A stretch of DNA of 64,000 nt from NCBI RefSeq assembly GCF_009914755.1, contig NC_060928.1; one strand, written 5' to 3'. Source of the stretch: the human T2T-CHM13v2.0 reference genome, Homo sapiens. Positions within the stretch are counted from its first letter, which is position 1; each line of letters begins with the position of its first letter. A program made the translations under genes and the position numbers. The notes beneath the pieces are model-generated. The model saw only the letters and a list, made by a program, of their open reading frames with translations. It made no database searches and was not told the origin of the DNA. Shown piece after piece: positions 26,401-29,400 of the stretch.

Positions 26401-29400
26401 GATACTGTGGGTTAGGATTTTGGACAGGGCATAGCAGGCATGACTTGCCTGTGTTCCACCGTGACTCTGGTTCATTTGGGAAGACATTAAGGCCAAGTGT
26501 TGACAGCTGGGTGAGAGATGATCTGTAGTATTGACTATGTCTGACATGAGACATTAGCTTAGGAGGACTCAAGGACTAAAATTGCTAATGGAGCATCTGT
26601 AAGTGGCCTCTACTTATGGTTCGGGCTTTCTCAGTATGTAGCAGCCTCAGAATAGTGTATGTCTTTACAAAAAAAATTTTATTTTATTTTTTTAAATTTT
26701 TGAGACAGAGTCTCGCTCTGTTGCCCAGGCTGGAGTGCAGTGGCGCGATCTCAGCTCCTGCGAGGAGGCGGACCGCCCATTCCGTGCCCGGTAGCCGCGA
26801 GGGACCGGTGGTAGCCGCGAGGGACGGGCGGCGGGCTCGGTGCTGTGGCGAGGCGGGGATGGCACTCCCCCCCGCCGCCCCGTGGGGCGGCCCCGACTTT
26901 CGGGCGGTGAGTGAGAGGCGGGCCCTGCAACCTCTGTCTCCTGGGTTCAAGCAATTCTCTTGCCTCAGCCTCCTGAGTAGCTGGGATTACAGGCATGTGC
27001 CACCCTGCCTGGCTAATTTTTGTCTTTTTTAGTAGAGACAGGGTTTTGCCATATTGGCCTGGCTGGTCTCGAACTCCTGACCTCAGGTGATCCACCGACC
27101 TTGGCCTCCCAAAGTGCTAGGATTACAGGCCTGAGCCACCCCTACTTTTTAATGACAGCTCAGGGCTCCAGAAGGAAGTGTTTTAGCAAACATGACAGAA
27201 ACTTCATTGCCTTTTCTGACCTGGCTTCTGAAGTCATGCAGCATTGCTTCAGCTGCATTCTCTTAAGTTACAGGAGAGTCAAAATCTACCCGATTCAAGG
27301 AGAGGGTGCATAGACCACTATATGTGATGATAGGAGTGTCAAGATCACATTATAGAAGACCATGTCGGATGGGAGATAGGCTTGTGGCCATCTTTGGAAA
27401 ATGCAAACTTTCATACCTGTACATGTATGAAATGTTGCTATAATAGATTGCCCCACCTTAGGGTATTGCCCAGTTGTTGGAATCCTTCCATGGCTCTGCC
27501 CCCTTACCCTGTTCTCTGACTCTAGTGTCTGAAAATCTTGCTGATCAATAAAATGGAAAACTTAACATTCATACAACTTACATTGAACCTTTCTAATAAA
27601 CCTCTTTTTATATTGGAAGAATACCTGTGTGACATAGACATAAATTATTTTATTAATGTAATTGAAATTTTAGAAAAGTGGGGTGAAAGCATTACTTATT
27701 CAGCAGAAAGTAAATATGTTTCTGCTACTTAAAGTCATAAGAGCAAGATGTTAACTAAGTGGCATCTCATTGCAAATGAGTACAATATTTTTGTTTTTAC
27801 AGATATGCAATATGATGAGGATGATGATGAAATCACCCCGGATTTGTGGCAAGAAGCATGCTGGATTGTAATCAGGTAACTTTGGACCAAACTGAATTAG
27901 CCTGAAAAGGCACTTTAGATTTCCTGCTTATTCTTCTTGATAAATAGCTCTTCTATATAAATATGCTACATGAGAGTAGTTATTTTATTTATATATTTAA
28001 CATTTTAAGTATTTCAGATCTAAAAGTTACACAAAGAATTCATTTAATCATTTTAACCAGATTCCGAAAATGTTACCCTGTACTACATTTCTTTGTCTTT
28101 TTCTCTTTTTGTATATATATATTTTTTTCTGAAACATGTGAGAGTAACTTGCAGATCATTTGACCCTGGGAGGTTGAGGTTACAGTGAGCGAAGGTCGCA
28201 CCGCTGCACTCCAGTCTTGGTGATAGAGTGAGACCCTGTTTCCAAAAAAAAAAAAGAATAACTGCAGACATAAGAACATTCTTTTACATAATCACAATTA
28301 TGGTGATCTTATTTAATCTATAGACCTTACCCACATTTTGCCAGTTGTCCCACTGGTGTTTATAGCAAAATACAAATTTTTCTGATCCTGGATCCAACCT
28401 AGGATCACATATTGCATTTACTTGTCATGGCATGTTCTTTTGTTTCCTTTAATCTGGAACAGTTCCTCAGTGTGTCTGTTCTTTTTTTTACCTTGACATT
28501 TTTGAAGAATACGGGCCAGTTACTTTTTAGGATGCCTTTCCGTTTAGGTTTGTCTGATATTTCTCATAATTAGATTCAGATGATTACTTTTGGCAGAAGT
28601 GACATAGTCTCAGTGCATCATATCAGGAGGCATGTTTGTTTCATTACTAGTAATGTTAATTTGATTGCTTGGTTTTCTCATTATTTTAAATGGACAAAGT
28701 TAAAATTGGTTGTATTTCATTCCAAATTCCCATCCAATTCTAAGTGTAACTAAATGTAATAAAATTACGAGAAGCCTTGTATAGGTAAGAAAAGTAACTT
28801 ATAAGTGATAAAGTAACATCCTGTAAGGTTAGGATGTTAAAGGCTTATAACTCTTCTCTCATCCCCTGACACCTGTTTTATATACAATAAGATGATGATG
28901 GATGCCTCTCTGAGCCCCATCAGCTCCAAGGTGCATGTCCTTTTGGTCAACATTCTCTCTTTTCAAAGAACACATGCTTCCAACATTCTGCCAGTTGTAT
29001 TCAGAGTATAACTGAATAACCTTTCTTGAACGTTGTTTTGTGAAAGAGATACTGATTTGCCTATAATCCCAGCACTTTGGGATGCTGAGGCAGTCAGATC
29101 ACTTGAGGTCAGGAGTTGGAGACCAGCCTGGCCAACACAGTGAAGCTCCGTCTTTACTAAAAAATACAAAAATTAGATGGGTGTGGTGGCGCACACCTGT
29201 AATCCCAGCTACTTGGGAGGCTGAGGCAGGAGAATCACCTGAAATTGGGAGGCAGAGTTTGCAGTTAGCTGAGATGATGTCACTGCACTCCAGCCTGGGT
29301 GGCAGAGTGAGACTCTGTCTCAAAAAAAAAAAGATGTTGATTCAGCATGTTGTCCAGAATCTTACAAAAAAAAGTATTGAAAGCCAGGTGCTGTGGTGTG

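What the first reader, a model, noticed from the sequence alone, without database searches (positions are those of the whole stretch)
26758..26924. Foreign CpG-island-like segment inserted into the middle of an Alu in POLR2B intron 1
Seen: an ordinary antisense Alu (~26678-27140) breaks at GCTC/CTGC and resumes after ~167 nt of unrelated sequence. The insert is about 80% GC with ~24 CpGs, while the host Alu's CpGs are largely decayed. CCTGC occurs at both junctions (26757-26761 and 26924-26928). There is no poly-A tail and no long TSD, so it does not look like L1 target-primed retrotransposition. It contains what looks like an exon/intron boundary (GCG|GTGAGT), which points to a genomic or unspliced template. 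Inference: a templated insertion captured from another gene's promoter or first exon during microhomology-mediated break repair, either recent or kept unmethylated. An assembly artefact or artificial insert is also possible.
Basis: partly seen in the sequence, partly recalled or inferred. Interest (0 to 1): 0.9.

Follow-up and report, generated by a model that had tools for sequence, protein, structure and literature searches.

The report
Old rDNA spacer fragment inside Alu
The GC-rich block splitting an Alu in POLR2B intron 1 is an old, partly decayed copy of a piece of the ribosomal DNA 5' external transcribed spacer, and one of its decay mutations made the splice donor of an annotated alternative POLR2B exon.

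Summary
An antisense AluS (26678-27140) is cut after GCTC (26757), loses one base, and resumes at CTGCAACC (26925). Between lie 167 nt with 78% GC and 24 CpGs.

The donor is not another gene's promoter or first exon. It is the 45S rDNA 5' external transcribed spacer, 284-445 nt upstream of 18S. The match covers insert positions 3-167 at 78% identity. The window + strand is antisense to pre-rRNA. No closer copy was found in this genome.

The copy is old. Of 31 mismatches, 13 are CpG to TpG/CpA in the insert and none run the other way.

The "exon/intron boundary" was not inherited. rDNA reads GCG|GCGAGC; a CpG C-to-T change made GCG|GTGAGT. RefSeq ends an alternative POLR2B exon (26729-26906) exactly there. 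That exon starts just after an AG in the Alu's pyrimidine-rich tail. It therefore looks like an antisense-Alu cassette exon with a donor borrowed from rDNA. It is 178 nt, shifts the frame and brings an early stop.

The most likely origin is capture of an rDNA or pre-rRNA-derived fragment during end-joining repair of a break in a resident Alu (one base lost, at most 4-5 nt of microhomology, no poly-A). This is a new member of known kinds and of moderate interest.

The parts
26678..26757 (-). 3' piece of the host AluS: A-rich tail (seen as T-rich run 26678-26701) plus the last 56 nt of the right monomer (26702-26757)
   Evidence: Aligned to the window-derived Alu consensus, positions 17-84; 3 of 4 consensus CpGs are kept. 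Rfam SRP hit on the - strand.
26758..26924 (-). rDNA 5'ETS-derived insert. The sense of the pre-rRNA lies on the window - strand, so the + strand (POLR2B sense) is antisense to pre-rRNA.
   Evidence: 78% identity over insert positions 3-167 to 39 chr13 rDNA units, minus strand. The site is 284-445 nt upstream of 18S. 131 of 162 aligned columns match, and 13 mismatches are one-directional CpG decay. Score 85 against shuffles at 22 +/- 3.
26925..27140 (-). 5' piece of the host AluS: rest of the right monomer, linker and left monomer. The first ~10 consensus positions are not matched.
   Evidence: Aligned to consensus positions 86-300. 1 of 15 consensus CpGs is kept and 9 of 185 non-CpG sites differ.
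26729..26906 (+). Annotated alternative POLR2B exon, 178 nt: 29 nt of Alu plus 149 nt of rDNA-derived insert
   Evidence: Hub gene table ('exons of other transcripts 26729-26906'). AG at 26727-26728 and GTGAGT at 26907-26912 are read.
26727..26728 (+). AG of the 3' splice site, preceded by the Alu's T-rich tail and the pyrimidine-rich TCTCGCTCTGTTGCCC
   Evidence: One search prints the upstream context. Antisense right-arm Alu exons are the usual kind of Alu exon (PMC2330237, passages read).
26907..26912 (+). 5' splice site GTGAGT. It was created from rDNA GCGAGC by C-to-T changes at CpGs (26908, 26912).
   Evidence: Alignments. The CpG table shows TG at 26908 and 26912.
26790..26829 (.). 20-nt tandem duplication inside the insert (two copies, 90% alike). 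The second copy lies where rDNA has a (CG)n run.
   Evidence: the repeat finder family D2; alignment.
26859..26861 (+). ATG (rDNA has ACG) that opens a 38-codon upstream reading frame running over the Met-8 ATG in exon 2
   Evidence: ATG at mRNA 131, context GCGGGGATGG; TG at 26860.
26812..26814 (+). TAG that stops the canonical POLR2B frame after 34 codons if the exon is spliced in behind exon 1
   Evidence: stop after 34 codons; the position was worked out from the exon offsets printed there.

Best explanation
A roughly 165-nt piece of the 45S ribosomal DNA unit lies in the right monomer of an AluS in POLR2B intron 1. It comes from the 3' part of the 5' external transcribed spacer (5'ETS), 284-445 nt upstream of 18S. 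It arrived either as DNA or as cDNA of pre-rRNA.

The most likely route is end-joining repair of a double-strand break in a resident Alu (a 'filler' or class-2 templated insertion). One Alu base was lost. At most 4-5 nt of homology (CTGC/CCGC) marks the left junction. There is no poly-A and no L1 cleavage site.

The copy then decayed like ordinary methylated DNA, though more slowly than the Alu around it. It remains a 231-bp stretch that meets CpG-island criteria.

Two of the CpG-to-TpG changes had consequences. GCGAGC became the strong splice donor GTGAGT, and ACG became an ATG. The new donor pairs with the AG and pyrimidine tract of the antisense Alu. Together they define a 178-nt alternative exon that RefSeq annotates. 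Spliced behind exon 1, it shifts the frame and stops translation after 34 codons. The transcript is then either an NMD target or gives POLR2B only from Met-8 in exon 2.

Shown: donor identity, strand, junctions, decay pattern, origin of the GT and ATG, reading-frame consequences.
Inferred: the break-repair route, DNA versus RNA template, the timing, that the exon is internal rather than a first exon, and the fate of the transcript.
For: Donor:
- In one search, of 229 candidates 40 were scored: the locus itself and 39 sites on contig 13. All 39 are at 78% identity over insert positions 3-167 on the minus strand. 38 of them are spaced exactly 46,970 bp apart.
- Rfam places 18S, 5.8S, 28S and the promoter RNA (pRNA) in that unit, with 18S starting 284 nt downstream of the match.
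- Within a 50-kb stretch of the array the site scores 123 bits; the next best place scores 44 bits.
- It is the only part of the 64-kb window that matches the transcribed rDNA: 2 of 1391 BLAST rows, the same site in two successive units.
- The alignment score is 85 against 22.3 +/- 3.0 for 100 shuffles.
- A 49-mer and a 41-mer of the insert have no other match in the genome at up to 3 mismatches.

Age and direction:
- 131 of 162 aligned columns match.
- 13 of 31 mismatches are CpG to TpG/CpA in the insert and 0 run in reverse.

Junctions:
- The Alu pieces abut consensus positions 84 and 86.
- rDNA homology ends exactly at both junctions.

Mechanism class: class-2 templated insertions are defined by no target-site duplication (TSD), no poly-A, and microhomology or microdeletion (PMC5110952, section 9 read). 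NUMTs (mitochondrial DNA copies in the nucleus) enter primate breaks in the same way (PMC2567098, abstract read).

Splicing:
- AG at 26727-8 and GTGAGT at 26907-12 flank the annotated exon (hub table).
- rDNA reads GCGAGC or GCGAGT at the donor.
Against: No empty allele (Alu without insert) was seen, because no other primate genome or human haplotype could be searched here. Insertion after the Alu's arrival is therefore inferred, not shown.

The insert and the Alu have the same sense on the - strand. An RNA template-switch model predicts this. A break-repair model gives it only half the time.

The middle of the insert (about 26810-26845) aligns poorly to today's rDNA. Identity of the whole is only 78-81%, so the donor may have been a variant or ancestral spacer.

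Whether the annotated exon is internal or a first exon is not stated in the table I was given. No expression, NMD or methylation data were available.

The CpG-retention contrast is modest against the whole Alu (Fisher p = 0.047). The deficit lies in the right-hand Alu piece, which keeps 1 of 15 (p = 0.002); the short left piece keeps 3 of 4.
Confidence: 0.72

Rival explanations
1. Chimeric retrotransposition. During L1-driven reverse transcription of an Alu RNA, the enzyme copied the tail and 56 nt of the Alu. It then jumped to a pre-rRNA 5'ETS fragment, copied about 165 nt, and jumped back to the Alu RNA 4 nt behind where it left. Alu and insert would then have arrived together.
For: The Alu and the 5'ETS piece are both in sense on the window - strand. 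CTGC is present on both sides of the insert, as expected if the enzyme re-annealed by 4 nt. L1 chimeras with fragments of 28S rRNA, mostly in sense, are documented (PMC13174262, passages read).
Against: Described chimeras carry the extra RNA at the 5' end of the L1 or Alu part, not inside it. Two jumps that land within one base of each other are needed. The insert keeps more of its CpGs than the Alu (21 of 41 against 4 of 19). That fits a later arrival, although local hypomethylation could also explain it. No flanking target-site duplication could be shown: the longest shared flank word is 7 nt of T/A. The words ETS, pre-rRNA, 45S, 47S and spacer do not occur in the main text of PMC13174262; its tables were not seen.
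Confidence: 0.13
2. One reading: a templated insertion copied from the promoter or first exon and intron of another RNA polymerase II gene, with its native exon/intron boundary.
For: The block has CpG-island composition and a perfect GTGAGT donor.
Against: All 39 scored non-self matches are rDNA units. Two long words of the insert are unique in the genome at up to 3 mismatches. The donor sequence at the 'boundary' is GCGAGC, not GTGAGT.
Confidence: 0.02
3. Assembly artefact or artificial join of rDNA reads into chromosome 4.
For: rDNA is highly repeated and hard to assemble. No reads could be inspected.
Against: A mis-join would be nearly identical to rDNA. This copy differs at 31 of 162 aligned columns, has 8 gap columns, and shows one-directional CpG decay. 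Its ends sit precisely inside one Alu with a single base lost. A RefSeq exon (26729-26906) spans the left junction (hub table).
Confidence: 0.01
4. Chance resemblance: a locally grown GC-rich low-complexity block that merely looks like the GC-rich spacer.
For: Both sequences are 78-90% GC. The middle part aligns poorly and holds a 20-nt tandem duplication.
Against: The score of 85 is about 21 standard deviations above the shuffles. The alignment runs end to end across the insert and stops at both junctions. Other GC-rich parts of the rDNA unit reach only 44 bits against 123.
Confidence: 0.01

Closest known systems
Dispersed rDNA-like fragments and rDNA pseudogenes of the human genome (Robicheau et al. 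2017, PMC5381670)
   Same: This is a degraded piece of the 45S unit, here spacer, lying far from the arrays on a non-acrocentric chromosome.
   Different: That study stresses large units and fragments of 500-2,000 bp near centromeres, and a low-level genome-wide signal (passages read). This piece is a single 165-nt fragment with exact junctions inside an Alu, in a gene intron, and it is used as exon sequence. POLR2B and 'chromosome 4' are not mentioned in the main text. The supplements were not seen.
Class-2 templated sequence insertions (Onozawa and Aplan 2016, PMC5110952) and NUMT filler insertions at breaks (Hazkani-Covo and Covo 2008, PMC2567098)
   Same: The donor is distant. There is no poly-A, no TSD of 5 bp or more, no TTTT/A site, a one-base deletion and a few bases of microhomology or overhang fill-in.
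   Different: The templates listed in the review section I read are L1 pieces, cDNAs, intronic or intergenic sequence and mitochondrial DNA; rDNA is not named there. This event is old and most likely fixed, not a known polymorphism.
Exonization of antisense Alu right arms (Gal-Mark et al. 2008, PMC2330237)
   Same: An antisense Alu in an intron supplies the pyrimidine tract and AG. The exon is alternative (found only in non-selected transcripts) and starts in the right arm.
   Different: The 5' splice site is not Alu sequence. It lies in the foreign rDNA-derived block, so the exon is 178 nt, of which 149 nt are not Alu.
L1 chimeric insertions with rRNA fragments (Cell Genomics 2026, PMC13174262)
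   Same: An rRNA-gene-derived fragment of a few hundred nt is joined in sense to a retroelement.
   Different: Those chimeras are 28S or 5S pieces fused to the 5' end of L1. This is a spacer piece in the interior of an Alu.

Membership tests
rDNA-derived fragment (5'ETS) | Sequence similarity to the 45S unit beyond what composition gives | tested here: met
   78% identity over insert positions 3-167, E 2e-26. Score 85 against 22.3 +/- 3.0 for 100 shuffles. 123 bits against 44 bits for the next best place in the unit.
rDNA-derived fragment (5'ETS) | Maps between the promoter and 18S | tested here: met
   pRNA hit at L015:4056-4145, 18S from L015:7848, match at L015:7403-7564.
Class-2 templated insertion / filler DNA at a repaired break | No poly-A, no L1 TTTT/A site, no recipient duplication of 5 bp or more | tested here: met
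   The junctions read and aligned show the target as GCTC/A/CTGC. At most CTGC (4 nt) of recipient sequence is duplicated. The fifth C at the right junction aligns to rDNA.
Class-2 templated insertion / filler DNA at a repaired break | Microdeletion and/or microhomology at the junctions | tested here: met
   One Alu base (consensus position 85) is lost. Alu C-CTGC overlaps rDNA CCCGC at the left junction.
Class-2 templated insertion / filler DNA at a repaired break | A pre-insertion (empty) site exists | not testable with these tools
   No other primate genome or human haplotype could be searched.
Antisense-Alu exon | [quoted passage not shown] | tested here: met
   AG at 26727-8; the exon starts at 26729 (hub table).
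Antisense-Alu exon | 5' splice site within the Alu | tested here: not met
   The donor at 26907-12 lies in the rDNA-derived insert.
Antisense-Alu exon | Internal, alternatively spliced exon | tested here: inconclusive
   The hub table lists it only as an exon of other transcripts. An AG just upstream argues for an internal exon. No transcript structure or junction reads were seen.
L1-mediated chimeric retro-insertion | Partner RNA joined at the 5' end of the retroelement, one TSD around the whole | tested here: not met
   The insert is internal, 56 nt from the tail. The flanks share only a 7-nt T/A word.
CpG island | At least 200 bp, GC at least 50%, CpG o/e at least 0.6 | tested here: met
   26700-26930: 231 bp, GC 73%, o/e 0.89. 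The criteria themselves are recalled.
CpG island | Unmethylated in the germ line | not testable with these tools
   No methylation data. The only indirect hint is 21 of 41 CpGs kept against 4 of 19 in the Alu.

The most novel reading that the evidence does not exclude
The exon places about 150 nt of antisense 5'ETS inside transcripts of the second-largest RNA polymerase II subunit. It includes perfect runs of 13-14 nt (read from the alignment). The boldest reading not excluded is that the block is kept. In that reading its slow CpG loss reflects a protected, unmethylated island. The exon then acts as a regulated poison exon, or as an RNA that pairs with nascent pre-rRNA, coupling POLR2B output to RNA polymerase I activity.
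Probability: 0.03. Interest if true: 0.75.

Novelty: new member of a known kind. Interest (0 to 1): 0.33.

Why it matters
This is a clean, fully resolved example of three ordinary processes stacked on one another. A break was patched with ribosomal spacer sequence. CpG decay turned inert sequence into a strong splice donor and an ATG. An antisense Alu lent the acceptor. The product is an annotated exon of an essential gene.

The case shows that rDNA spacer, not only mature rRNA or mitochondrial DNA, can serve as filler at germ-line breaks. It also shows that an Alu exon need not take both splice sites from the Alu.

For annotation, it explains an odd CpG-island-like block in POLR2B intron 1. 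It also warns that reads from this exon can cross-map to the rDNA 5'ETS. It does not reveal a new mechanism.

Tried and rejected
- Closer paralogues: two long words of the insert (49 and 41 nt) found only the locus itself at up to 3 mismatches. One search did not complete and was repeated. Of the 229 candidates, 189 were not scored, so a weaker non-rDNA relative cannot be excluded.
- Rfam on 26000-28000 at E up to 1 gave only Alu/SRP-type hits, a mir-1268-like hit inside the Alu and a weak SNORD58-like hit. Nothing fell in the insert.
- Other rDNA-like pieces in the window: none in the transcribed part of the unit.
- Target-site duplication of the host Alu: only a 7-nt T/A word is shared, which is inconclusive.
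- Literature on this locus:
  - 'POLR2B' with 'alternative first exon' gave 4 papers, 3 listed. The two I opened name POLR2B only in passing.
  - 'POLR2B' with Alu, cryptic or poison exon terms: none of the 15 papers listed, of 492 found, holds POLR2B.
  - The transcript accession I recalled, NM_001303268, occurs once, in a yeast two-hybrid table.
  - 'external transcribed spacer' + Alu + inserted + exonization gave 0 papers.
  - The held supplements of the hnRNP C and Alubaster Alu-exon papers do not hold POLR2B.
- Dating by divergence was tried only roughly, because the spacer itself evolves and no outgroup was available.
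Full report
**Observation**

The + strand at 26678-27140 is an antisense Alu. Rfam finds SRP-like matches on the - strand at 26700-27013 and 27033-27145.

I collected 49 other Alus of the window with matches of at least 190 nt and built a majority consensus from them. 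Against this consensus the left piece (to 26757) ends at position 84 (…GCTC). The right piece (from 26925) starts at position 86 (CTGCAACC…). Exactly one base, the A at position 85, is missing.

Between the pieces lie 167 nt with 78.4% GC, 24 CpGs and CpG o/e 0.96. The 100-nt GC windows rise to 0.76-0.80 there. The host Alu differs from the consensus at 12 of 249 non-CpG sites (4.8%) and keeps 4 of 19 consensus CpGs. It is an old AluS-like copy.

**Donor**

A search of the window's own genome with the 167 nt found 229 candidates, of which 40 were scored. One is the locus itself. The other 39 are on contig 13, all at 78% identity over insert positions 3-167, all on the minus strand. Of these, 38 are spaced exactly 46,970 bp apart and one lies at 9.345 Mb.

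Rfam on the fetched flanks and on a 50-kb stretch of that array places these elements on the + strand:
- 18S at L011:878-2746 and again from L015:7848;
- 5.8S and 28S downstream of the first 18S;
- the promoter RNA (pRNA) at L015:4056-4145.

The match is at unit positions 433-594 and 47403-47564. That is 284-445 nt upstream of 18S and about 3.2-3.4 kb downstream of the pRNA hit. It therefore lies in the 3' part of the 5' external transcribed spacer (5'ETS).

The window + strand, which is the POLR2B sense strand, is thus antisense to pre-rRNA. On the window - strand both the Alu and the spacer piece are in sense.

Several controls support this donor:
- Within the 50-kb stretch the site scores 123 bits and the next best place 44 bits.
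- Of 1391 BLAST rows between the whole window and the unit, only 2 fall in the transcribed part. Both are this site; the rest fall in the intergenic spacer, which is full of Alus.
- The local alignment score is 85, against 22.3 +/- 3.0 (maximum 32) for 100 dinucleotide-preserving shuffles.
- A 49-mer and a 41-mer of the insert have no other match in the genome at up to 3 mismatches.

Today's genome therefore holds no closer source, at least among what was scored.

**Age and direction**

In a global alignment to the array unit, 131 of 162 aligned columns match and 8 columns are gaps. Of the 31 mismatches, 13 are CpG in rDNA against TpG or CpA in the insert. None go the other way. Four are other transitions and 14 are transversions, 9 of them in the poorly aligned middle.

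That middle part holds a 20-nt tandem duplication (26790-26829) where rDNA has a (CG)n run.

Of the 41 CpGs of the rDNA segment, the insert keeps 21. Eight are now TG, 2 are CA and 10 are otherwise changed or gapped. The block is therefore a decayed copy, not a fresh one.

It has nevertheless lost CpGs more slowly than its host:

| Compared with | CpGs kept there | Fisher p against 21 of 41 |
|---|---|---|
| whole host Alu | 4 of 19 | 0.047 |
| right-hand Alu piece | 1 of 15 | 0.002 |

Either the block arrived well after the Alu, or the stretch has been partly protected from methylation. The stretch 26700-26930 is 231 bp with GC 73% and o/e 0.89. I cannot tell these two apart. Dating is not possible without other primates, because the spacer itself changes with time.

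**Junctions and mechanism**

rDNA homology stops exactly at both junctions.

- Left junction: the Alu's …GCTC(A)CTGC overlaps the rDNA's CCCGC, read CCTGC in the window. This is either a 4-nt duplication of Alu CTGC or 4-5 nt of microhomology, together with a one-base loss.
- Right junction: there is no homology beyond the C.

There is no poly-A. The target, GCTC/ACTGC, is not an L1 cleavage site. Recipient sequence is duplicated by at most 4 nt.

These are the features that define class-2 templated insertions. Such insertions are thought to be cDNA or DNA patches joined into a double-strand break by end joining (PMC5110952, sections 5, 8 and 9 read). Mitochondrial DNA fragments (NUMTs) enter primate breaks in the same way, with preserved short overhangs (PMC2567098, abstract read). 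Dispersed rDNA-like fragments are known genome-wide (PMC5381670, passages read).

I rate capture into a resident Alu as the most likely route, at about 0.7.

The main rival, at about 0.13, is a double template switch during Alu retrotransposition: Alu RNA to pre-rRNA and back. The shared sense orientation favours it, as does the existence of L1 chimeras with sense 28S fragments (PMC13174262, passages read). Against it, the partner RNA in such chimeras sits at the 5' end, whereas this block is internal. No flanking target-site duplication could be shown. Whether the template was rDNA or reverse-transcribed pre-rRNA cannot be decided from the sequence.

**What it does now**

The hub table lists an exon of non-selected POLR2B transcripts at 26729-26906.
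The array units read GCG|GCGAGC there and the variant unit at 9.345 Mb reads GCG|GCGAGT. The GT (26907-8) was therefore made by a C-to-T change at a CpG after copying, and the +6 T likewise in most comparisons.
- Its 5' end follows an AG (26727-8). That AG lies behind the Alu's T-rich tail and a pyrimidine-rich run.

This is the usual layout of antisense right-arm Alu exons (PMC2330237, passages read). I therefore read the exon as an internal cassette exon. Its acceptor is Alu and its donor is decayed rDNA spacer. That it is internal is inference; the table does not say.

The reading-frame consequences depend on where the exon sits:
- Behind exon 1, its 178 nt shift the frame, and the canonical reading frame stops after 34 codons at a TAG in the second copy of the 20-nt repeat.
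- As a first exon, an ATG at 26859 (ACG in rDNA) opens a 38-codon frame that overlaps the next in-frame POLR2B ATG. That ATG is Met-8 in exon 2, and its frame stays open through the exons read.

Either way the exon adds no POLR2B coding sequence. The transcript is a likely NMD substrate, or it yields a protein seven residues shorter. From memory, RefSeq lists such a shorter isoform; I did not see the record.

**Comparison and novelty**

Each ingredient is known: rDNA-like debris, filler insertions at breaks, Alu exonization, and splice sites made by CpG decay. New here are the donor (pre-rRNA spacer), the place (inside an Alu in the gene for a Pol II subunit) and the hybrid exon.

My searches found no description of this locus. 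They cover only open-access full text. I did not see the supplementary tables of PMC5381670 or PMC13174262, which could list it. I file it as a new member of known kinds.

**Verdict**

It is wrong on the donor class (not a Pol II gene's promoter or first exon), on recency, and on the origin of the splice boundary. Interest is moderate to low, at 0.33.

The boldest reading left open is that the antisense-5'ETS exon is a maintained regulatory element linking POLR2B to ribosomal transcription. I give that about 3%.

Noticed in passing
L002:1501-1667 (G000 contig 13, about 9.345 Mb): One rDNA unit, separated from the evenly spaced hits by a stretch in which no unit was scored, differs from them in this spacer segment. 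It has one extra CG in the (CG)n run, GCGAGT instead of GCGAGC, and ACCGCGG instead of ACCTCGG. The six loci compared from the evenly spaced units (L003-L008) are identical to each other over 3.16 kb.
   Followed up: partly
L003:329-418 and L015:6231-6320: Rfam mir-663 scores 102.5 bits (gathering score 75) inside the 5'ETS of every rDNA unit examined, about 1.5 kb upstream of 18S.
   Followed up: no
window 26028-26081 (+): A weak SNORD58-like match (24.7 bits, gathering score 42, E 0.024) lies in POLR2B intron 1, about 700 nt upstream of the Alu. It is below threshold and probably chance.
   Followed up: no
window 26964-27015 (-): A mir-1268-like match (32.7 bits, gathering score 83) lies inside the host Alu. 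This is ordinary Alu sequence.
   Followed up: no
window, whole: The right-hand piece of the host Alu finds 49 other Alus with matches of at least 190 nt in the 64 kb. The window also gives 1389 BLAST rows to the rDNA intergenic spacer, presumably through shared repeats such as Alus (not checked row by row).
   Followed up: partly
window 26689-26695 and 27146-27152: TTTTTAA is the longest exact word shared by the two flanks of the host Alu. It could be the remnant of its target-site duplication at an L1-type site, but it is too short and simple to say.
   Followed up: partly
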